Source: a bacterium
GTDB lineage: Bacteria; Lernaellota; Lernaellaia; Lernaellales; Lernaellaceae
Assembly (NCBI GenBank): GCA_036725605.1
Contig: DAIMDW010000001.1
Coordinates: forward strand, 545,045 to 609,044
DNA: 64,000 nucleotides
Direction: 5' to 3'
Position 1 is the stretch's first letter. Each line of letters begins with the position of its first letter. The translations under genes were made by a program, and so were the position numbers. This document shows, one piece after another, positions 1 through 11,170 of this stretch. The notes under the pieces were generated by a model, which was given only the letters and a program-made list of their open reading frames with translations, did not search any database and was not told the origin of the DNA.

Positions 1-40
1 GATGTTTTGCGATGACGACAATGAACAAACAAAGACCGGA

Positions 41-1648
41 TTACGATTCTTTATTGTCCTTGCGAGTAACATTAGGTTCACATCCTTTCTCAATCGACCA
101 GTTCCCGGATTTATTAGCAATCAATTGATTTTCTTCATATGTGCCTTTGCCCGCTTTATATACACGGATGCCATAATACCGATTCTCTTTGATCCGATTG
201 CGACGCACTATCGGATCGCCATTTTCACTTGTAATTATTCCCGACGATTCATTGCCAAATATTTCATTATCTTCGAACGTGCCCCTGCCGTTCTTGTATA
301 CATAAACACCGCTCTGTTTGCCATTATAAATTCGGTTTCGTCGCACCGTTGGATCGCCATTTTCACTCGTTGCTATTCCCGATAATGCATTGCCAAATAT
401 TTCATTGTCTTCGAACGTGCCCTTGCCGCTCTCGTATACATAAACACCGCTCTGTTTGCCATCATGAATTCGATTGCGGCGCACTATTGGATCGCCGTTT
501 TCCCTCGTTGCTATTCCCGATAATCCATTGCCGAATATTTCGTTATCTTCGAACGTGCCCTTGCCTCTCTCATAAATGAAAACGCCGCTGTAACGACCAT
601 CGTGAATTCGATTTCGCCGAACACGCGGGTCTGCTCCTCCATGTACGGCTAAACAGGCTTGACTTTGACTGGAAATATCACATCCTTCCAGTTCCAAGCA
701 TCCTTGTACAATGTTTACTGAATACCAATTTCCTTCACCGCATTGCCGTAATGTCAAGTTGATCAATCGGCCAAATTCCGTTTGAAATTTCACTACATTC
801 GCTTCGTACGACTCAACAATGATCTCTTCCAATAAACCGTCGCCGATGATTTCCAACGGTTTGTCGATTATCAAACTTTCCTTATACAATCCCGGTCGCA
901 CTAGAATCCTAGTTCCCGGTTCCGCTTGGCGAATGGCTGCACTGATTTTATTGTGGTCCCCTCGTCCGCGCATCGGATCGACAATCAATGTTGGTGGTTC
1001 TTTTCGTTTGACCGGCGCCACATTCGGTTTTTCCTTTTGGATTGTTGAGATTGAAGAGACTTCAGACTGTTCTATATTAACCTTTTTTACCTTTTTCCCA
1101 GTACTTTTCGCTTTTGCTTTCTTCTTGGGAGGCTCAATTCCCGCCTCCACAGCGTCACGGATTTTGATCGCCATTTCGGCCAGTCGTTTGCCTACTTCCG
1201 GACTGGTAAATGGTTCAAAGCGCAGGTTAATCCAATCGATCCACTGTCGCTTGGCGATATCCTCGGCAATCGGATCTTGCTTCCGTTTGGCTTCATCCGT
1301 CAGAGCAGGTGTGTCCACATACAAAATCGGGAAAATCAGGTCGTCGCGTCCAATACTCTTTTCCCATTTCCAGAAAAGTTGGTATTCATTGCGGCATTCC
1401 GGGCGTTTCAAATAGCCTGGAGTAACGACAACAATTAATACAGTTGAGGCATCCAAACCTTCTTCAATACGTTTTCTCCATTGTTTTCCCCATTCGATAT
1501 CTCGTCGATCTTGAAAGATAACAAACGGGTCGCCGCTTTGTACAATAACTTCCTTTTCAAGACGTTCGCGCATAGTGGAAAGCCTGCCACCGTCCTGATC
1601 ATCATTCTGATGGGCATAGCTGAAAAATGCCGCAGGTTTTCTGTCCAT
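41..1648 (-). CDS. TIR-domain protein fused to C-terminal parallel beta-helix (PbH1-like) repeats; candidate NADase/defence effector
   Basis: The N-terminus (FFSYAHQND...IFQD..DIEWG..W...I......VLIVVVTPGYLKRPECRNEYQLF) matches the TIR/TIR_2 fold, including the alphaC Glu in RNEY. A Lys-rich linker follows. Then come about 4.5 tandem repeats of roughly 41 aa (NRIHDGKQSGVYVYESGKGTFEDNEIFGNALSGIATSENGDP) typical of right-handed beta-helix proteins. The ATG at 1648 is preferred over the TTG at 1693. Local GC is lower than in the rest of the window. Confidence 0.6.
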   Translation of the reverse strand: MDRKPAAFFSYAHQNDDQDGGRLSTMRERLEKEVIVQSGDPFVIFQDRRDIEWGKQWRKRIEEGLDASTVLIVVVTPGYLKRPECRNEYQLFWKWEKSIGRDDLIFPILYVDTPALTDEAKRKQDPIAEDIAKRQWIDWINLRFEPFTSPEVGKRLAEMAIKIRDAVEAGIEPPKKKAKAKSTGKKVKKVNIEQSEVSSISTIQKEKPNVAPVKRKEPPTLIVDPMRGRGDHNKISAAIRQAEPGTRILVRPGLYKESLIIDKPLEIIGDGLLEEIIVESYEANVVKFQTEFGRLINLTLRQCGEGNWYSVNIVQGCLELEGCDISSQSQACLAVHGGADPRVRRNRIHDGRYSGVFIYERGKGTFEDNEIFGNGLSGIATRENGDPIVRRNRIHDGKQSGVYVYESGKGTFEDNEIFGNALSGIATSENGDPTVRRNRIYNGKQSGVYVYKNGRGTFEDNEIFGNESSGIITSENGDPIVRRNRIKENRYYGIRVYKAGKGTYEENQLIANKSGNWSIEKGCEPNVTRKDNKES

Positions 1649-1739
1649 AGGGTTAATAACCTTTGGTTGAATTAGGTTGATAACATTTATCAACGTTAAT
1701 AGGAGAGTGTCAATGTGATAAGCCGTCTGTGTTGCTTGC

Positions 1740-3053
1740 TCAATACCCCGCGAACCGCTTTTCGAGCATGATTTTGAGGATCGTCCGGTCCGCTTCGATC
1801 ATCCCCTGGCGGCTGAGCGTGCCGATGTTCTGCGAGGTTTTCTGGAACGACGTACCGATGATCCCCTCGGCCGAATGCACCGTCACTCCCTGCAGCGCGA
1901 ACAGCGCCGCCTGCACCGCCGTGCCCGCCGCCGTCGCCAGCTTGAGCGCGCACGAACCCTTCGCCCCGTCGCAGATCACCCCCGCCAGATCCTCGATCAG
2001 ATTCGAAATCGACCCGGCGATGTGGTGGATGTCGCCGCCCAACAGGTAGGTCACCCCGGCCGCCGCGCCGGCTCCGGCGGCGATCGAACAACCACACACC
2101 GCCGACAGCCGCCCGGTGTGCGCCTTCACATAGGCCGTCACCAGGTGCGAAAAGGCGATCGCCTCCAGCAGCGTTTTCTGCTCGTATTCGATGAAATTCT
2201 TGACCGCGTAAATCGGCAGCACCGCCGTCAGACCGTGGTTGCCGCTGCCCGCCGAGGACATCGCCGGCAGTTTGACGCCCGCCATGCGCGCATCGGAAGC
2301 CGCCGAGGCCAGAATGCGCGCTTCGAGGATCATGTCGCGCTTGAGCAACCGTTGTTTGGCCAGCCGGTCGAAGGTCTTGCCCACGCCCAGCCCCGGCCCG
2401 TGCTTGAGGCCGTACTCGGCCAGGCGCAGATTGAGCGTGATGCTCTCCTGCAAAAAGGTGAAGTCGTCCTCGCTGAGATCGTCGAGCATCTCCAGCAGCG
2501 TTTCGAGCGTGACCGTGCGCAGCCATTCCTCCAGGCGCGCCAACTCGCCGTCGCCTTCCGCTTCGGTACTCACCCCCAGCGCCGTTGCGGCCGGCTGCCC
2601 GTCGAGCGTGAGGGAAACGAGATTGTCATGCACGTCGCGGATGATCGCCTCGCCGACGGACGATCCGTTGCGCACCGTCGCGCGGATGAACAAGCCGATC
2701 TGGTTTTCCAGCAGGTTGACCTTCACGCCTCCCTGCTTGATCAGCCCCTTGGCCAGCCGCACGGTCTGTTCGTCGATCGGATCGAGCACCTCGAGCCGGC
2801 GCGTCGCATCGCCGCCGACCGCGCCCAACGCGGCCGCCATGTCCAGGCCGGTCAGGCCCGGCGCGCCCGGGATCGACACCGCGATGCCGTTTTTATAGAT
2901 GTTGCCGTCGACCCACACTTCGATCGCCTCGATCGTTTTATCCGGCAGCACCAAGGCGGCCGCCGCCGCGCAATAGGCGATCGCCGCCGGCTCGGTGCAA
3001 CCCAACGCCGGCGCCACTTCCATCCGCAGAATGTCTTGTACGCTGAAGGTCAT
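1740..3053 (-). CDS. L-cysteine desulfidase family protein (YhaM/CyuA, serine-dehydratase-like UPF0597)
   Basis: N-terminal VAPALGCTEPAAIAY and the central SAASDARMAGVKLPAMSSAGSGNHGLTAVLP block closely resemble E. coli YhaM, as I recall its sequence. Confidence 0.8.
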   Translation of the reverse strand: MTFSVQDILRMEVAPALGCTEPAAIAYCAAAAALVLPDKTIEAIEVWVDGNIYKNGIAVSIPGAPGLTGLDMAAALGAVGGDATRRLEVLDPIDEQTVRLAKGLIKQGGVKVNLLENQIGLFIRATVRNGSSVGEAIIRDVHDNLVSLTLDGQPAATALGVSTEAEGDGELARLEEWLRTVTLETLLEMLDDLSEDDFTFLQESITLNLRLAEYGLKHGPGLGVGKTFDRLAKQRLLKRDMILEARILASAASDARMAGVKLPAMSSAGSGNHGLTAVLPIYAVKNFIEYEQKTLLEAIAFSHLVTAYVKAHTGRLSAVCGCSIAAGAGAAAGVTYLLGGDIHHIAGSISNLIEDLAGVICDGAKGSCALKLATAAGTAVQAALFALQGVTVHSAEGIIGTSFQKTSQNIGTLSRQGMIEADRTILKIMLEKRFAGY

Positions 3054-3155
3054 TGTCGTTTGTTCCCCGCGCTGTGTGTTTTCAAATTATACGTGGCCCT
3101 TGCCCGGTTGCAACGTGGGCTGCCTTTTGCGATTATTCGATCTTGTGAGGGAACC

Positions 3156-3986
3156 ATGGATAAATACTTAAATGCCAATCGCCGTATGTGGGACGAGCGG
3201 GTTCGAGTGCACCAGAACGATTCCGAGTGCTACCCGGTTTCCGCCTTCAAAGCCGGCGACGAAAAAGCCGTGCCGCCCCTGCCCGACGATATCGGACCGG
3301 TGAACGGAAAATCGATTCTCCATCTGCAATGCCACTTCGGAATGGACAGCCTGGGATGGACGCGCAAAGGAGCGAAGGTCACCGGCGTCGACTTCAGCCC
3401 CGTGGCCATTGCCCAGGCGCGGCAACTCAACGACGAGTTGGGGCTCGATGCGCGTTTCATCGAGACCGACATCGCCGATCTGCCCGCTCATCTGACCGGC
3501 CAATTCGATATCGTCATGACCTATTACGGCACGATTATCTGGCTGCCGGATCTGCGCCGTTGGGCCAAGGTGATCGCCCATTTCCTCAAGCCGGGCGGTT
3601 TTTTCTATCTCGCCGACACGCACCCGACCGCGCTTTGCTTTGATGTGTACGACGACGATGCCGGCCTGCAACTACATTATGATTACTTCACCGACGGTCG
3701 TCCGCTGAAGTTCGAAGACGAAAGCGGATCATACGCCGATCCGACCGCAAAAACCGAAGCCAATCTTTCCTACGAATGGCAGCATTCGCTCGACGAGATC
3801 ATCAACTCGCTGCTCGCCGCCGGTCTGCGCCTCAAATACATCCACGAGTTCCCGTACGCCTTTTTCAATTTGTATTACAAGACGAAACCGGAGTTGATGT
3901 TCAAAGATGAAGCCGGTTGGTGGCGCTTGCGGGAAAAGGCGAACAGCCTGCCCTTGATGTTCTCCCTCTGCGTCGAAAAACCGTAA
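3156..3986 (+). CDS. Class I SAM-dependent methyltransferase
   Basis: Methyltransferase motif I (ILHLQCHFGMDSLGW..GAKVTGVDFS) and later Rossmann-fold motifs are present. The ATG at 3156 is the real start; the upstream part of ORF 1875..3986 is antisense to the desulfidase gene. Confidence 0.7.
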   Translation: MDKYLNANRRMWDERVRVHQNDSECYPVSAFKAGDEKAVPPLPDDIGPVNGKSILHLQCHFGMDSLGWTRKGAKVTGVDFSPVAIAQARQLNDELGLDARFIETDIADLPAHLTGQFDIVMTYYGTIIWLPDLRRWAKVIAHFLKPGGFFYLADTHPTALCFDVYDDDAGLQLHYDYFTDGRPLKFEDESGSYADPTAKTEANLSYEWQHSLDEIINSLLAAGLRLKYIHEFPYAFFNLYYKTKPELMFKDEAGWWRLREKANSLPLMFSLCVEKP

Positions 3987-4040: not shown

Positions 4041-5891
4041 TTACTCTTCCACCTCGATCTGATCCGGATAGGTGATCTTGATGTACATGTTGTCGCCGAA
4101 ATCCTGCTGGCAGGCGAATTCGGCTTCCTCGCCGTCGGGCCACACGACGCGCAAGGTGCACTCGCAGCTCATCGCGCCCAGGCCGAAGTGCTGTACGCGC
4201 GTGCTTTCCGAGTTGTAGTGGCCCTTGCTCGATTTCTTTTCGCGCATCAGCGTTACGTCGTCGGATTCAAGGTACAGCCGCGCGCCGATCGCGTCGCGGT
4301 TGATGTTCTCGCCGTCGCCTTCCAGCCGCACGGCCAACCAGCGGTTTTCCTGCCCGATGTCGTTGCGCAGCAGGAAATTCGGCCGTCCGCCGCCCAGGTC
4401 GCCCGCGCCGGTGAACAGGTCGAGGTCGCCGTCGTGGTCGATGTCGATCCAGATGTTGTTGCTGGTGCTCTTTGCGCGAATCCACACCGTATCGTCCGGA
4501 TCGTTGATGCCGCTGGCTTCGCCGAAGGATTGGAACGTGCCGTCATCGAGCTGCCGCCACAGGCCGAACCAACCTTTCATATCCCACTCGTAGTAGCGGT
4601 CCTCGTACTTTTTGTCGCGCGACAGGGAAAGGTCGAGTCGACCGTCGTTGTCGAAATCGACCATCGCGCCGTCAATGTCGCCTTCGTTGAAGATCAGGCC
4701 GCGCTCGAGGAACTCGTTGGTGAAGTAAAAGTCCTCGTCGTCGCCGCCGTTGATCAACAGTTGCGTCGGGTCCGACCATTTGCGCAGTTCGTCGGTGTTG
4801 GTCGCGTGCGAAATGGTGGTCAGGAAGATATCCAGGTCGCCGTCGTTGTCCACGTCGCCGCAGTCGATGCCGAAGCCGTTGCTGCCCACGTAGGTGCCCG
4901 GTTCCGCGCCGGGTTCGGGCGCGGTGCCGTGATCGGTGGTCACCAGGTAGTAGTTGCCGGTCGCCAGGCTGGCGAAGCCGCGCTCGACGGCCACGTTGGT
5001 GAAGTTGCCCTCGCCGTCGTTTTCCCACAGATGGTTCAGACCGTTGAGCGTCGAGACGCTGTAGGTCGACACGAAAATATCCAGGTCGCCGTCGTTGTCG
5101 TAATCGGCCGTGATGCACCCGTTGGTCGGCTGGGCAGTCTGGTCGGCCAGGCGGTCGGAGACGTCCTCGAACGTGCCGTCGCCGTTGCCGAAGTACAGCA
5201 GGTCGGTCGCGGCGTACATCGTGTGGCCGTTGCCGACGAACAGGTCGAGGTTCGCGTCGCCGTTGAAGTCGGCGAACAACGCGTTGCCCGCGTAGGTTTT
5301 GTAATTGCCGTCGACGCCCGAGTCGTCCAGGACGGTGAAATGTCCCTCGCCGTCGTTGAGCAATATTTCGCTGCGGTAATCCTCGTAGCGGAAGATATCC
5401 AACCCGGCGAACGCGTCCTGGTCGCCGTCGTTGTCCACGTCGCCGAAGGCGAAGAAGCCGGCCTGAATGTCGCGCAGGCCCGACTCGTCGCTGAAATCGG
5501 TGAACGTGCCGTCGCCGTTGTTGAGGAAAACGAGGTGTTCGAAGGGCACGCCGTTTTGCGCATTGGGGAACAGGCTGTGCATCAACAGGTCGTCGTAACC
5601 GTCGCCGTTGATGTCCGCGCTTTCCACCCGGGCGTGGTCGTTGCGCTGAATGTCTTCGGGCGGATCTTCATAGTAATTGTCCACCCGCATGCCGCTTTGG
5701 TCGGAGATGTCGACGAAGAAATCCGCTTCCGGCTCGACCGGATCGCTCGGATCGCATTCATAGTTGTCGTCGTCATCATCGTCGTCGTCATCGTCGTCAT
5801 CGTCGTCGTCATCGCACGAGCAGGCTCCGATGGCCAGCGACAGCGCGCCGCACAGCAACAACACCAAAAACAGTCGGCTCCAGATTTTCAT
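4041..5891 (-). CDS. Secreted FG-GAP/VCBS repeat lipoprotein with ASPIC/UnbV-like C-terminal domain (CRTAC1-like) and poly-Asp linker
   Basis: Signal peptide with LAIGAC lipobox, followed by a run of about 20 Asp. Multiple D-x-D-x-DG-x-x-D calcium-binding FG-GAP motifs occur (DVDNDGDLDIF, DYDNDGDLDIFV, DFNGDANLDLFV). The C-terminus (RDAIGARLYL...GHYNSES..FGLG) resembles ASPIC/UnbV. Confidence 0.75.
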   Translation of the reverse strand: MKIWSRLFLVLLLCGALSLAIGACSCDDDDDDDDDDDDDDDDNYECDPSDPVEPEADFFVDISDQSGMRVDNYYEDPPEDIQRNDHARVESADINGDGYDDLLMHSLFPNAQNGVPFEHLVFLNNGDGTFTDFSDESGLRDIQAGFFAFGDVDNDGDQDAFAGLDIFRYEDYRSEILLNDGEGHFTVLDDSGVDGNYKTYAGNALFADFNGDANLDLFVGNGHTMYAATDLLYFGNGDGTFEDVSDRLADQTAQPTNGCITADYDNDGDLDIFVSTYSVSTLNGLNHLWENDGEGNFTNVAVERGFASLATGNYYLVTTDHGTAPEPGAEPGTYVGSNGFGIDCGDVDNDGDLDIFLTTISHATNTDELRKWSDPTQLLINGGDDEDFYFTNEFLERGLIFNEGDIDGAMVDFDNDGRLDLSLSRDKKYEDRYYEWDMKGWFGLWRQLDDGTFQSFGEASGINDPDDTVWIRAKSTSNNIWIDIDHDGDLDLFTGAGDLGGGRPNFLLRNDIGQENRWLAVRLEGDGENINRDAIGARLYLESDDVTLMREKKSSKGHYNSESTRVQHFGLGAMSCECTLRVVWPDGEEAEFACQQDFGDNMYIKITYPDQIEVEE

Positions 5892-9322: not shown

Positions 9323-11170
9323 ATGCAACAGCCTTTGCACGAAATCGCAGCCATCGCCGCACGGTTCAGCATCCAGCATTGGTGGTTGCTGGTTCTACCG
9401 GCGTTGGCCGGTTTTTTCGCCGCCGGCTGGTCGCGGCCGAAAGAGCGCCGCTGGTTTCATCACCTGCCGACCGTCGTTTTGCTCGTCGCCGGACTGGCGC
9501 TGGTCGTGCGCAACACGGCGATTTTCGACGACGCGTATTACTCCTTCCGTTGCGCGCGCAATCTGGCCGACGGTTACGGCCTGGTGTTCAATCCCGGGCA
9601 GTATTTCGAAATCTACACCAACTTTCTCTGGACGATCTGGCTGGCGCTGTGCCTCAAGCTCAGCGGCCTGAACCTGGAGATCCTCGCCGTTCTCTCCAAT
9701 TACGCCTGTTGGCTCGCCAACATGATCGTCATTTACAAAATCGGCCTCGCCCTCAACGCCAAAAGCAAACATTACTTCCCGCTGGCGGTGCTCGTGTTGG
9801 CGCTGCAGTACTATTTCATGTCCTTCGGCACCTCCGGCCTGGAAACGATGGCCGGCAGTCTGCTGGTGAACCTCGGCGCGTATTTTCTGCTCAGCGAGCG
9901 CACGTATGGTCGCTCGTTCCTGGCCGGATCGTTTTTCATCCTCGCCGTGTTCAACCGGATGGACCACGCGCTGTTTTTCCTCTGCGGCACGGCGGCGCTG
10001 TTGTGGCGCGATCGCTCCCATTGGTCGGCGCTTGTCAGGCGCGATTGGCCGGGCGGCCGCGCCGCCTTGTATCACTTGCTCACCTTCGCCTCACCGCTGC
10101 TGCCGTACGGCGCGTACCTGTTGTGGAAGGTGCACTACTACGGCTCGCTTTTCCCCAGTGCGTTTTACGCCAAGTCGGCCGCCGCGTCGTATTACCATCA
10201 GGGGTTGATCTACACGCTGATGTTCTACCTGGGCTCGCATTTTTACGTGTTGCTGCCGTTGTTGCTGCTGTGGCTGTCGGCCGGCCGTCTGAAAAAGACG
10301 GATGAAACGCCGGGCGCCTCGGTGTTTCGCCTGTTCGCCCTCGCGTCGATCGCCGTCTGGCATTTCTACGTGATCCGCGTCGGCGGCGATTACCTGATCG
10401 GCCGCTTCTACGTCGTCCTGATGCCGTTGATGATCCTCGGCGGCGAGCACTTCATTTTTTCGCAACTGACCAACCGCATGGCGCAGCGGATTCTCGCGGC
10501 CCTGGTCGCCGCCGCCGCGTTCGGCGTACCCTTGCTCGCCGGCATGGAAGGCGCTTATTGCCAGATGGACGGGCACAACCATTACCAGAAATACATTCCG
10601 ACGATCTGGGAAAACCGCAACAATCACGAGCGCACGTTCCCCTGTTTCGCCGAGAAAAGCCTTTCGCCGCTGGTGTTGGCCGACGCGAAATACGGATACG
10701 ACTCAGCGCTGCCGATCATCGATCGCTGGGGCATCACCGATCCGCAATTCAGCCGGAGAAAGGTCGAACATCGCGGCTGCCCCGGCCACGAAAAATATGT
10801 TTCGTTGCAGGAACTGGTCGACCGCGGCATTCGTCTGTCGTTGATTCCCACCGAGCTGTTCGACAATCGCCATCAGGACATCAACGATCTGGTCACGCCC
10901 TGCGGGACGATCGACCTGCTGGTGTACGACCTTACTTTCGTCGACGATCTGCGTGAACATTTGTCTGACGTGACGCTGCCCGACTTCCCCCAATTCCTCG
11001 ACGGCTACCTGGCCGAGTTGACGCAAAAATCGCGCCCCGAAGTGGCCGAGGATTTAAAGAACTTCCAGTTTTATTATTTTAATCTTCATCCGGATCCGGC
11101 GCGCCTGCAGCCGATCCTCGATTACCTCGCGGAGGGTTCGACGGCCAGCGCGGTCAACGCCGCTCCCTGA
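9323..11170 (+). CDS. Polytopic membrane protein, putative GT-C fold glycosyltransferase, paralog 2 (tandem duplicate of 7468..9288)
   Basis: Same architecture and motifs as paralog 1 (DDAYYSFRCARNLADGYG, YTNFLWTIWLAL, CPGHEKYVSLQELVDRGIRLS), about 45% identity by eye. Confidence 0.45.
   Translation: MQQPLHEIAAIAARFSIQHWWLLVLPALAGFFAAGWSRPKERRWFHHLPTVVLLVAGLALVVRNTAIFDDAYYSFRCARNLADGYGLVFNPGQYFEIYTNFLWTIWLALCLKLSGLNLEILAVLSNYACWLANMIVIYKIGLALNAKSKHYFPLAVLVLALQYYFMSFGTSGLETMAGSLLVNLGAYFLLSERTYGRSFLAGSFFILAVFNRMDHALFFLCGTAALLWRDRSHWSALVRRDWPGGRAALYHLLTFASPLLPYGAYLLWKVHYYGSLFPSAFYAKSAAASYYHQGLIYTLMFYLGSHFYVLLPLLLLWLSAGRLKKTDETPGASVFRLFALASIAVWHFYVIRVGGDYLIGRFYVVLMPLMILGGEHFIFSQLTNRMAQRILAALVAAAAFGVPLLAGMEGAYCQMDGHNHYQKYIPTIWENRNNHERTFPCFAEKSLSPLVLADAKYGYDSALPIIDRWGITDPQFSRRKVEHRGCPGHEKYVSLQELVDRGIRLSLIPTELFDNRHQDINDLVTPCGTIDLLVYDLTFVDDLREHLSDVTLPDFPQFLDGYLAELTQKSRPEVAEDLKNFQFYYFNLHPDPARLQPILDYLAEGSTASAVNAAP

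What the first reader, a model, noticed from the sequence alone, without database searches (positions are those of the whole stretch)
41..1693. TIR domain fused to a parallel beta-helix repeat domain in a low-GC patch at the contig edge
The N-terminal roughly 170 aa has the bacterial TIR signature, including the alphaC glutamate (RNEY) needed for NAD+ hydrolysis. The C-terminal half is 4-5 near-identical 41-aa beta-helix (PbH1-like) coils joined by a poly-Lys linker. Bacterial TIR proteins are typically antiphage NADase effectors (Thoeris, CBASS, pAgo-associated), but a TIR/beta-helix fusion is not a described architecture. The lower GC suggests horizontal acquisition. Partner genes may lie just left of the window.
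Basis: partly seen in the sequence, partly recalled or inferred. Interest (0 to 1): 0.7.

Follow-up and report, generated by a model that had tools for sequence, protein, structure and literature searches.

The report
Lone TIR–beta-helix gene, recently inserted
A single horizontally acquired gene encodes an NAD-cleaving-type TIR domain tethered to a beta-helix repeat domain; it belongs to a large, widespread but unstudied family that probably acts alone as a sensor-plus-effector, most likely in defence.

Summary
It has a TIR domain (residues 1-172), a 45-aa Lys-rich disordered linker, and a right-handed parallel beta-helix (218-535). HMMs and AlphaFold/Foldseek support both domains. The catalytic-type Glu (E88) is invariant in 77/77 relatives.

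The architecture is not rare. There are >1,500 full-length homologs at 42-54% identity, in about 235 of 185,579 species genomes, across many bacterial phyla and several archaea. I found no paper describing it.

No partner gene exists. A relative (L083) has the empty site, and the insert (window 13-1739) carries only this gene. It is bracketed by a 96-nt duplication of the 3' end of the upstream SDH_alpha-family gene. Across 81 loci no neighbour is conserved, and most contexts are housekeeping.

Both halves are swappable modules. This TIR subtype also pairs with WD40 and CobT-vWA domains. This beta-helix also follows a protein kinase. One beta-helix face is hypervariable.

Best reading (about 0.5): a stand-alone sensor-effector in which ligand binding by the beta-helix clusters TIR domains and triggers NAD+ cleavage. 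Defence is plausible but untested. It is a new variant of a known kind.

The parts
41..1648 (-). TIR-beta-helix gene: 535 codons plus the stop codon at 41-43.
   Evidence: P0001 is 100% identical and 535 aa; all homologs start at the equivalent Met.
1133..1648 (-). TIR domain, residues 1-172. It comprises betaA-betaE and alphaA-alphaE plus a conserved C-terminal helical extension (DWxxLRFEPFTSP...).
   Evidence: Pfam TIR_2 1e-11. A PDB profile search hits L6, AtTIR, PdTIR, Cat1, TcpB and AbTIR. The TIR-only AF2 model has pLDDT 88.4 and pTM 0.87. Top Foldseek hits are RPS4, RPP1, SPARTA, L6, AbTir and SARM1 TIRs.
1385..1387 (-). Codon of Glu88 (E103 in the 550-aa numbering), the catalytic-type glutamate at the start of helix alphaC (motif C-R-N-E).
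   Evidence: It aligns to the Glu of WCxxEL in L6 and AtTIR. It is invariant in 30/30 and 77/77. The helix spans 83-98 in the model.
998..1132 (-). Disordered Lys-rich linker, residues 173-217 (13 Lys in 45 aa). Its length and sequence vary among homologs.
   Evidence: pLDDT is 25-50. See also the composition and alignment columns 215-270.
44..997 (-). Right-handed parallel beta-helix, residues 218-535: an N-terminal cap, about 13 coils and a C-terminal cap.
   Evidence: Pfam Beta_helix 1e-44 and NosD 6e-24. pLDDT is 94-99. Foldseek hits AlgE4/AlgE6/AlgG, polysaccharide lyases and tailspikes.
195..634 (-). Tandem 138-nt (46-aa) units of the beta-helix: three similar copies and a degenerate fourth.
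   Evidence: TRF gives period 138, 2.7 copies and 87% matches. See also repeat finder D1 and the unit identities.
13..1739 (.). Inserted low-GC DNA, 1,727 nt: a 91-nt leader, the gene and a 28-nt tail. It is absent from the related locus L083.
1740..1835 (-). Direct-repeat copy 1: the last 96 nt (31 codons plus TGA) of the SDH_alpha-family gene.
   Evidence: the repeat finder D2, 95/96 identical. See also the junction alignment.
1..12 (-). First 12 nt of direct-repeat copy 2. The other 84 nt lie to the left of the window (L001 11649-11732).
1740..3053 (-). Insertion target: an SDH_alpha-family (serine dehydratase alpha-like) gene, 437 aa. It is intact.
   Evidence: Pfam SDH_alpha 2.5e-56. L083 carries a 95% identical ortholog.
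1676..1694 (-). Perfect 8-3-8 palindrome GTTGATAA-ATG-TTATCAAC in the leader, 28 nt upstream of the start codon. A TTGACA hexamer lies at 1713-1708. It may be an operator or promoter, read by eye only.
   Evidence: Sequence. The consensus promoter scan was not above shuffle expectation.

Best explanation
The gene encodes a cytoplasmic, stand-alone sensor-effector.

Effector: the N-terminal TIR domain is of the NAD+-cleaving kind, with the catalytic Glu retained.

Sensor: the C-terminal beta-helix is a ligand-binding repeat domain. One of its faces varies between homologs.

Proposed mechanism (inferred): the beta-helix binds a multivalent or polymeric target, most plausibly a component of an invading phage or other foreign element. 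Binding brings several molecules together. The long flexible Lys-rich linker then lets the TIR domains assemble into the composite active site that TIR enzymes need. NAD+ is hydrolysed, and growth stops (abortive infection).

No partner gene is required.

The gene arrived by horizontal transfer as a one-gene unit. It sits immediately after the stop codon of an SDH_alpha-family gene, whose last 96 nt are duplicated on the far side of the insert.

Shown here: the domain identities, the conserved Glu, the absence of conserved partners, the modularity of both halves, and the recent single-gene insertion.

Inferred: NADase activity, activation by ligand-induced clustering, and the defence role.
For: TIR identity and catalytic residue:
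- establish the TIR domain and fold.
- E88 is invariant in 30/30 and 77/77 relatives.

Beta-helix fold.

No conserved neighbour:
- The commonest neighbour cluster occurs in 8 of 81 loci and is lineage synteny for housekeeping genes.
- The insert in this genome holds only this gene, and a relative has the empty site.

Modularity, as in immune sensor-effectors:
- The same TIR subtype has 1,817 representatives at E<=1e-30.
- It is fused to the beta-helix in 22 of 77 scanned representatives and to WD40 in 5 of 77. Tandem TIRs also occur.
- It is fused to a CobT-type vWA domain on an Agrobacterium plasmid, beside a DUF262 gene, another TIR gene and an integrase.
- The same beta-helix, including its non-repetitive cap, follows a Ser/Thr kinase in P0003 and a divergent TIR in P0070.

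A variable surface: one face of the 46-aa unit is hypervariable (>=2 bits) while the other two are nearly invariant. The number of repeat units also varies among homologs.

Accessory-gene behaviour:
- It is present in about 235 of 185,579 species genomes, across many bacterial phyla and in Methanosarcinales, Methanoperedens, Methanothrix and Hadesarchaea, at 42-53% identity.
- Its GC is >5 points below the flanks in 30 of 81 loci.
- Some genomes hold 2-3 paralogs: L027, L033 and L042 in one Streptomyces genome.

Established knowledge (mine): TIR NADases such as SARM1, AbTir, TIR-STING, TIR-SAVED, SPARTA and Cat1 require the alphaC Glu and are switched on by oligomerisation.
Against: - There is no experimental evidence for NADase activity or for phage defence.
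- No PADLOC model covers the protein. It gives only weak TIR-only hits, the best being PDC-S66 at 8e-7.
- The neighbours are mostly housekeeping genes. Only a handful of the 150 immediate neighbours hit defence models.
- No homolog was found on phages, on IMG/VR contigs or full-length on plasmids. The usual mobilome and defence-island signatures are therefore missing.
- In Pyrinomonadaceae the gene sits in conserved synteny, as if vertically inherited. That would also fit a physiological role.
- High conservation (about 50% identity across phyla) on two faces of the beta-helix is unusual for a receptor in an arms race.
- The ligand is unknown.
Confidence: 0.5

Rival explanations
1. Physiological (non-immune) regulator. 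The beta-helix senses an endogenous polymer or metabolite, such as a cell-envelope precursor, a storage polysaccharide or a nucleic-acid state. The TIR domain then adjusts NAD+ or nucleotide pools, or makes a signal, for dormancy, development or stress responses.
For: - Genomic contexts are housekeeping.
- Synteny is conserved within Pyrinomonadaceae.
- Two beta-helix faces are strongly conserved across phyla.
- The family is enriched in developmentally complex or soil lineages (Streptomyces, Acidobacteriota, Chloroflexota).
- It is absent from phages and plasmids.
Against: - The distribution is patchy, at about 0.1% of species.
- GC anomalies are frequent.
- This genome shows a recent presence/absence polymorphism.
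- Repeat number is variable and one face is hypervariable.
- Both modules are shuffled with other partners.
All of these are typical of accessory conflict genes and not of core physiology.
Confidence: 0.22
2. Signal-producing TIR of a split, Thoeris-like pathway. On activation the TIR makes a cADPR-isomer or similar messenger, which is read by an effector encoded elsewhere in the genome.
For: - The TIR has weak similarity to ThsB-type models: ThsB_TIR 0.0089 and ThsB1 0.05.
- Plant-type TIRs, its closest solved relatives, are signal generators.
Against: - No ThsA, SLOG, Macro or SIR2 gene is adjacent here or conserved across 81 loci.
- The gene transfers alone. An unlinked effector would not travel with it.
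- The ThsB_TIR score is below Pfam's cut-off (16.9 against 21.2).
Confidence: 0.12
3. Carbohydrate-active enzyme with a TIR accessory domain. The beta-helix would be a lyase, epimerase or hydrolase acting on a polysaccharide.
For: The closest solved folds and sequences are alginate C5-epimerases (AlgG, AlgE4/6), polysaccharide lyases and tailspike depolymerases. NCBIfam gives weak AlgG and NosD hits.
Against: - The AlgG catalytic DPHD segment aligns to Y-V-Y-E, so the motif is absent.
- Scores are far below the family cut-offs: AlgG 40 against 700, NosD 64 against 300.
- By inspection of the N-terminus, the protein starts directly with TIR strand betaA and has no signal peptide, whereas such enzymes act outside the cytoplasm.
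- The coils are unusually regular, with no elaborated loops forming a groove.
Confidence: 0.05
4. Non-catalytic scaffold. The TIR acts only as a protein-protein interaction module, as in animal TLR adaptors.
For: TIR domains can be pure adaptors. Foldseek also lists TLR TIRs.
Against: The Glu, the preceding Cys, and the FxSY, FQD and W..W motifs are invariant or nearly invariant across 77 diverse representatives. That argues for an enzymatic site.
Confidence: 0.05

Closest known systems
Single-chain TIR effector-sensor proteins activated by oligomerisation (SARM1, AbTir, TIR-SAVED, TIR-STING, SPARTA TIR-APAZ, Cat1)
   Same: It has the TIR fold with the alphaC catalytic Glu. The effector domain is tethered to a separate sensing module. 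No downstream partner seems needed for the proposed NAD+ depletion.
   Different: The sensor is a parallel beta-helix and not SAVED, STING, APAZ/pAgo, CARF or ARM-SAM. No nucleotide-signal synthase, Argonaute or CRISPR locus is adjacent. Activity is untested.
Thoeris (ThsB TIR + ThsA)
   Same: Both involve a bacterial TIR with the catalytic Glu, and there is weak similarity to ThsB models.
   Different: There is no ThsA-type partner here or in 81 homolog loci. The ThsB_TIR HMM scores below its cut-off. The TIR is fused to a large repeat domain.
[quoted passage not shown]
   Same: It has the same logic and falls in the same general class. The very same TIR subtype is also found with WD40 propellers.
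   Different: The repeat domain here is a PbH1/CASH-type beta-helix. I could not find this combination described with TIR.
FBXO11/FBXO10 CASH-domain beta-helices (eukaryotic SCF substrate receptors)
   Same: JGI annotates many homologs as 'F-box protein 11' because of the similar, very regular PbH1 coils. In FBXO11 this domain recognises protein substrates (my knowledge; abstracts listed).
   Different: Pfam finds no F-box and no UBR zinc finger. The protein is prokaryotic. The beta-helix is coupled to TIR and not to ubiquitin ligation.
C-terminal displacement / homology-facilitated illegitimate recombination scars (rhs loci, T6SS effector-immunity arrays; PMC5361080)
   Same: New DNA is inserted after a conserved upstream coding region. 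The displaced 3' end of that gene is left downstream as a non-functional copy.
   Different: Here the upstream genes are ordinary housekeeping genes (an SDH_alpha-like gene, an aminoacyl-tRNA synthetase and PreA). The cargo is an unrelated stand-alone gene and not a new C-terminus of the same gene.

Membership tests
TIR domain superfamily (Pfam TIR_2, PF13676) | HMM match above the curated gathering score | tested here: met
   TIR_2 scores 45.8 bits against a cut-off of 28. TIR (PF01582) scores 27.1 against 21.3.
TIR domain superfamily | Flavodoxin-like betaA-betaE / alphaA-alphaE fold | tested here: met
   The AF2 model has pLDDT 88.4 and pTM 0.87. The top Foldseek PDB hits are all TIR domains, with TM 0.55-0.63.
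Enzymatic (NADase-type) TIRs | Conserved catalytic Glu at the start of alphaC | tested here: met
   E88 aligns with the Glu of WCxxEL in L6 and AtTIR. It is invariant in 30/30 and 77/77 relatives.
Enzymatic (NADase-type) TIRs | NAD+ hydrolase or cyclase activity | not testable with these tools
   This needs a biochemical assay.
Thoeris | ThsB-type TIR HMM match | tested here: not met
   ThsB_TIR scores 16.9 bits, below the 21.2 cut-off. PADLOC ThsB1 gives E 0.05.
Thoeris | Adjacent ThsA (SIR2, Macro or SLOG effector) | tested here: not met
   None is within 10 kb in L001. None is conserved across 81 loci. The insert holds one gene.
CBASS/Pycsar TIR effectors (TIR-SAVED, TIR-STING) | SAVED or STING sensor domain and a neighbouring CD-NTase or cyclase | tested here: not met
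   Pfam finds only TIR and beta-helix. No cyclase is among the neighbours.
SPARTA / short pAgo TIR-APAZ | APAZ domain and an adjacent short pAgo | tested here: not met
   PADLOC Aga_TIR models match only the TIR residues 59-123, at E about 1e-3. No Argonaute is a neighbour.
STAND/NLR-like (Avs, TIR-NLR) | Central NACHT or NB-ARC NTPase domain | tested here: not met
   Pfam and NCBIfam find no P-loop domain. A 45-aa disordered linker joins the TIR directly to the beta-helix.
Right-handed parallel beta-helix (Pfam Beta_helix PF13229; PbH1/CASH repeats) | HMM match and beta-helix fold | tested here: met
   Beta_helix 1e-44 and four TIGR03804 repeats. pLDDT is 94-99, and Foldseek hits AlgE4, AlgG, lyases and tailspikes.
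Alginate C5-epimerase / polysaccharide lyase enzymes | Catalytic motif (AlgG DPHD) and family-level score | tested here: not met
   The DPHD segment aligns to YVYE. NF038177 AlgG scores 40 bits against a cut-off of 700.
NosD (N2O reductase maturation) | Family-level HMM score | tested here: not met
   TIGR04247 scores 63.9 bits against a cut-off of 300. No nos genes are nearby.
FBXO11 | F-box and UBR-type zinc finger flanking the CASH repeats | tested here: not met
   Neither domain is found by Pfam. The name comes from JGI's automatic annotation.
FxsC (FxSxx-COOH system TIR-like protein) | Family-level HMM score | tested here: not met
   NF040588 scores 36.8 bits against a cut-off of 130.
Site-specific integrative element (island at a gene 3' end) | Flanking direct repeats that reconstitute the target gene | tested here: met
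   The 96-nt repeat ends at the stop codon and the gene is intact. Analogous repeats occur in L026 and in Pyrinomonadaceae loci.
Site-specific integrative element | Integrase or recombinase encoded in the element | tested here: not met
   The 1,727-nt insert has one ORF. No integrase Pfam hit is within 10 kb.

The most novel reading that the evidence does not exclude
TIR-beta-helix proteins are a widespread, previously unrecognised single-gene innate-immune receptor family of bacteria and archaea. In it, a CASH/PbH1 beta-helix (the fold that FBXO11 uses for substrate recognition) serves as the pattern-recognition domain that switches on a TIR NADase. These genes also spread as bare one-gene units, landing behind housekeeping genes by one-sided homologous recombination that leaves a displaced gene 3' end as a scar.
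Probability: 0.35. Interest if true: 0.7.

Novelty: new variant of a known kind. Interest (0 to 1): 0.5.

Why it matters
If the protein is a ligand-activated NADase, it would add the parallel beta-helix to the short list of sensor folds used by prokaryotic TIR immunity. It would also give a simple, one-protein, partner-free model for how repeat-domain binding is converted into TIR assembly.

The family is large: more than 1,500 proteins, found in bacteria and archaea. It is currently hidden under generic 'beta-helix repeat' or 'F-box protein 11' annotations, so a functional assignment would re-annotate many genomes.

The clean occupied and empty site pair, together with the recurrent displaced 3' ends, gives a concrete example of how a single accessory gene can enter a housekeeping locus without any recombinase of its own.

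Tried and rejected
- The exact 550-aa ORF is not in the contig index. The 535-aa form is.
- IMG/VR scans with the protein and with the alignment found no relatives. tblastn against phages found none. tblastn against plasmids found only domain-level hits and none full length.
- An exact-pattern metagenome scan for the repeat/downstream junction found nothing. The protein-based scan for the upstream gene then found the empty site.
- The sigma-70 promoter and terminator scan was no better than shuffles.
- A protein-level (six-frame) search for further flanking duplications was too noisy in high-GC loci. Mock controls reached 54 bits, so only L026 and L001 stood out. The DNA-level test with mock-insert controls was used instead.
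- I compared the cassette ends of the three independent insertions by eye and found no shared end motif.
- A conserved partner gene was rejected.
- Membership of Thoeris, CBASS, SPARTA, STAND, NosD, AlgG and FxsC was rejected.
- Six literature searches for TIR plus beta-helix or CASH found no description of the fusion.
Full report
**1. What is there**

The ORF at window 41..1693 on the minus strand is real.
- Pfam finds a TIR domain (TIR_2 1e-11, 45.8 bits against a cut-off of 28) and a right-handed beta-helix (Beta_helix 1e-44; NosD 6e-24).
- NCBIfam finds four parallel beta-helix repeats.
The gene is therefore 41..1648 and the protein has 535 residues.

The AlphaFold2 model built on 30 homologs has mean pLDDT 85.6. 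It shows three parts:
- a TIR domain (1-172);
- a disordered linker (173-217, pLDDT 25-50, 13 Lys in 45 residues);
- a very confident beta-helix (218-535, pLDDT 94-99).

The beta-helix matches alginate epimerases, polysaccharide lyases and phage tailspikes by fold.

The TIR domain modelled alone has pLDDT 88.4 and pTM 0.87. Its top matches are RPS4, RPP1, SPARTA TIR-APAZ, L6, AbTir, SARM1 and Cat1 TIR domains.

A profile of the TIR half hits solved plant and bacterial TIRs by sequence (L6 at 5e-9; also AtTIR, PdTIR, Cat1, TcpB and AbTIR). It places Glu88 on the catalytic Glu of the WCxxEL motif. Glu88 and Cys85 are invariant in 30 full-length homologs and in 77 diverse representatives of the TIR subtype.

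The internal repeat has a period of 138 nt, or 46 aa (two 23-residue coils). There are three good copies and a degenerate fourth, not 41-aa units.

**2. The architecture is common but unstudied**

A word-indexed search returned more than 1,500 hits. The best 120 are all full-length TIR plus beta-helix proteins at 44-54% identity, apart from one kinase fusion. They are annotated only as 'right-handed parallel beta-helix repeat-containing protein' or 'F-box protein 11'.

In one genome per species (185,579 species), 235 loci encode a relative. The best 80 span:
- Acidobacteriota, Chloroflexota, Actinomycetota (many Streptomyces), Alpha-, Beta-, Gamma- and Deltaproteobacteria, Cyanobacteria, Bacteroidota, Verrucomicrobiota, Gemmatimonadota and Armatimonadota;
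- the archaea Methanosarcinales, Methanoperedens, Methanothrix and Hadesarchaea.

All are at 42-53% identity. Some genomes hold two or three copies.

Six literature searches found no description of a TIR/beta-helix (CASH, PbH1) fusion. [quoted passage not shown]

**3. It came in alone, recently**

The DNA to the left of the window was recovered from a 361-kb JGI contig (L001).

The low-GC stretch begins exactly after the stop codon of the upstream SDH_alpha-family gene. The last 96 nt of that gene, including TGA, recur 1,823 nt downstream at 95/96 identity.
- Copy 1 is window 1740-1835.
- Copy 2 starts at window 12..1 and continues to the left of the window.
- Between the copies lie 1,727 nt: a 91-nt leader, the gene and a 28-nt tail.

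A related organism (L083) has a 95% identical SDH_alpha protein and about 87% nucleotide identity over 7 kb. It has one copy of the 96-nt segment running straight into the same downstream region and gene. This is an empty site.

The genes to the left of the window are therefore native, not partners. They are a 386-aa hydrolase-like protein, a 150-aa membrane protein, a lipid A acyltransferase and a nitroreductase.

**4. No conserved partner, and mostly housekeeping contexts**

I clustered all ORFs within 5 kb of the gene in 81 loci. No neighbour family occurs in more than 8 loci.

The top clusters are housekeeping genes that reflect synteny within lineages: SDR dehydrogenase, ABCE1, nitrilase, PreA, NAD(P)HX dehydratase and DnaX.

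Of 150 immediate neighbours, the commonest Pfam families are Fer4/DHO_dh (6-7 members), Peptidase_M16 (4) and FAD_binding_3 (4). PADLOC models hit only a handful: DpdF, PsyrT, PDC-S21, PDC-S70 and a TIR effector (one each), plus ATPase-type hits that are probably unspecific.

No full-length homolog was found on 72,556 plasmids, in 50,697 phage records or in IMG/VR.

**5. Both halves are swappable modules**

The TIR subtype:
- It has 1,817 cluster representatives at E<=1e-30.
- Of 77 longer representatives, 22 carry the beta-helix and 5 carry WD40 propellers. Some are tandem TIRs or have the TIR at the C-terminus.
- On Agrobacterium plasmid pAtCG920 the same subtype is fused to a CobT-type vWA domain (CobT_C 1e-49). 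It lies beside a DUF262 gene, another TIR gene and an integrase.

The beta-helix:
- The same beta-helix, including its non-repetitive N-terminal cap, follows a Ser/Thr kinase in P0003.
- It follows a divergent canonical TIR in P0070.

Within the 46-aa unit two faces are nearly invariant (RRNRIHDG and GTLEDNDIFGN; their alternating charges would stack as salt-bridge ladders, which is my inference). The third strand and its turns are hypervariable, at 2 bits or more. The number of units differs among homologs. The AlgG catalytic DPHD segment aligns to YVYE, so an epimerase-type active site is absent.

**6. Mechanism proposed**

Established knowledge of TIR enzymes (SARM1, AbTir, TIR-STING, TIR-SAVED, SPARTA, Cat1) is that the alphaC Glu is catalytic and that activity needs TIR-TIR assembly.

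The features found here are:
- a retained catalytic Glu;
- a flexible linker;
- a repeat domain with one variable face;
- no partner gene;
- modular shuffling of both halves;
- accessory-gene behaviour.

Given these, the best-supported reading is a stand-alone sensor-effector. Binding of a multivalent target by the beta-helix would cluster the TIR domains and trigger NAD+ cleavage. A defence (abortive infection) role is the most likely biological setting.

The defence role rests on analogy only. There is no defence-island support, and the conserved synteny in Pyrinomonadaceae leaves room for a physiological role. My confidence is about 0.5.

**7. The flanking repeat**

The same kind of scar occurs in at least two further independent lineages.
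- In a Methanosarcinales contig (L026) the last roughly 106 nt of a class-I aminoacyl-tRNA synthetase gene recur 95 nt after the TIR-beta-helix stop codon.
- In four Pyrinomonadaceae loci the last 20-45 nt of preA recur 26-46 nt after it.

In every case copy 1 ends at the stop codon of the same-strand upstream gene. Copy 2 also ends in a stop codon, sometimes a different one.

The differences between the copies are mostly synonymous:
- L004: 9 synonymous, 0 non-synonymous, in 15 codons;
- L026: 7 synonymous, 3 non-synonymous, in 36 codons;
- L001: 1 synonymous.

Mock insert positions reach comparable alignment scores in 0.5% of trials, against 5 of 80 real loci.

The downstream copy therefore derives from a functional orthologous 3' end.

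The simplest explanation is one-sided homologous recombination. The upstream gene acts as the anchor, and there is an illegitimate join just after the cargo, which displaces the recipient's own 3' end. This is the process proposed for rhs and T6SS 'C-terminal displacement' (PMC5361080).

An integrase-less element mobilised in trans by a site-specific recombinase is the rival. No integrase lies within 10 kb, and the target genes differ between lineages.

In L001 both copies carry the host lineage's own variants, so the donor must have been a very close relative.

**8. Verdict**

- Supported: the TIR with its catalytic Glu, the beta-helix, and horizontal acquisition.
- Not supported: the hoped-for partner genes, which do not exist, and the rarity of the architecture, which is not rare.
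- Not evidenced: the defence role, which is plausible only.

It is a new variant of a known kind (TIR plus repeat sensor). It is of moderate interest, with a concrete experimental path.

Noticed in passing
window 1-12 and 1740-1835; L001 9814-9909 and 11637-11732; empty site at L083 7219-7314: A 96-nt direct repeat (95/96 identical) brackets the one-gene insert. It is the 3' end of the SDH_alpha-family gene, including its stop codon. A related metagenomic contig has the empty site.
   Followed up: yes
L026 1275-1380 vs 3089-3194; L004 7889-7927 vs 9931-9969; L007 7908-7936 vs 9958-9986; L050 7892-7928 vs 9521-9557: The same scar occurs in other lineages: a displaced copy of the upstream gene's 3' end, ending in a stop codon, with mostly synonymous differences. 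The upstream genes are an archaeal aminoacyl-tRNA synthetase and preA in Pyrinomonadaceae. The mechanism is unresolved, either homology-facilitated illegitimate recombination or an integrase acting in trans.
   Followed up: partly
window 1676-1694 (minus strand): A perfect 8-3-8 palindrome, GTTGATAA-ATG-TTATCAAC, lies in the leader of the inserted gene, with a TTGACA hexamer at 1713-1708. It could be an operator or promoter carried by the cassette.
   Followed up: no
L084 4986-6458 (Agrobacterium tumefaciens plasmid pAtCG920, NZ_CP116698.1): An ORF not listed in the PLSDB gene table (which is incomplete) encodes the same TIR subtype fused to a CobT-type vWA domain. It lies next to a DUF262 gene, a second TIR protein, an integrase and a Phd/YefM antitoxin, which looks like a defence islet.
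   Followed up: partly
P0003 (948 aa, JGI metagenome): A Ser/Thr protein kinase is fused to the same beta-helix module, including the N-terminal cap. This suggests the beta-helix is a general input domain used with different output enzymes.
   Followed up: partly
L027, L033, L042 (Streptomyces sp. NPDC002889); L034, L044 (MAG MFD05580.bin.2.24): Single genomes hold three and two paralogous TIR-beta-helix genes respectively, at different loci.
   Followed up: no
window 4041-5891 (minus strand): A 616-aa predicted lipoprotein has a run of about 18 consecutive Asp residues after the signal/lipobox region. It also has many DxDxDGDxD (FG-GAP/VCBS-like) calcium-binding-type repeats. No Pfam hit is on record for it in the JGI annotation.
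   Followed up: no
L085 4992-6458 and 7801-9750 (Caballeronia plasmid p1): A 488-aa protein of the same TIR subtype has an unassigned C-terminal half. It sits upstream of a serine protease and a gene annotated as DUF4231. DUF4231 also appears next to two of the 75 TIR-beta-helix loci whose neighbours were scanned.
   Followed up: no
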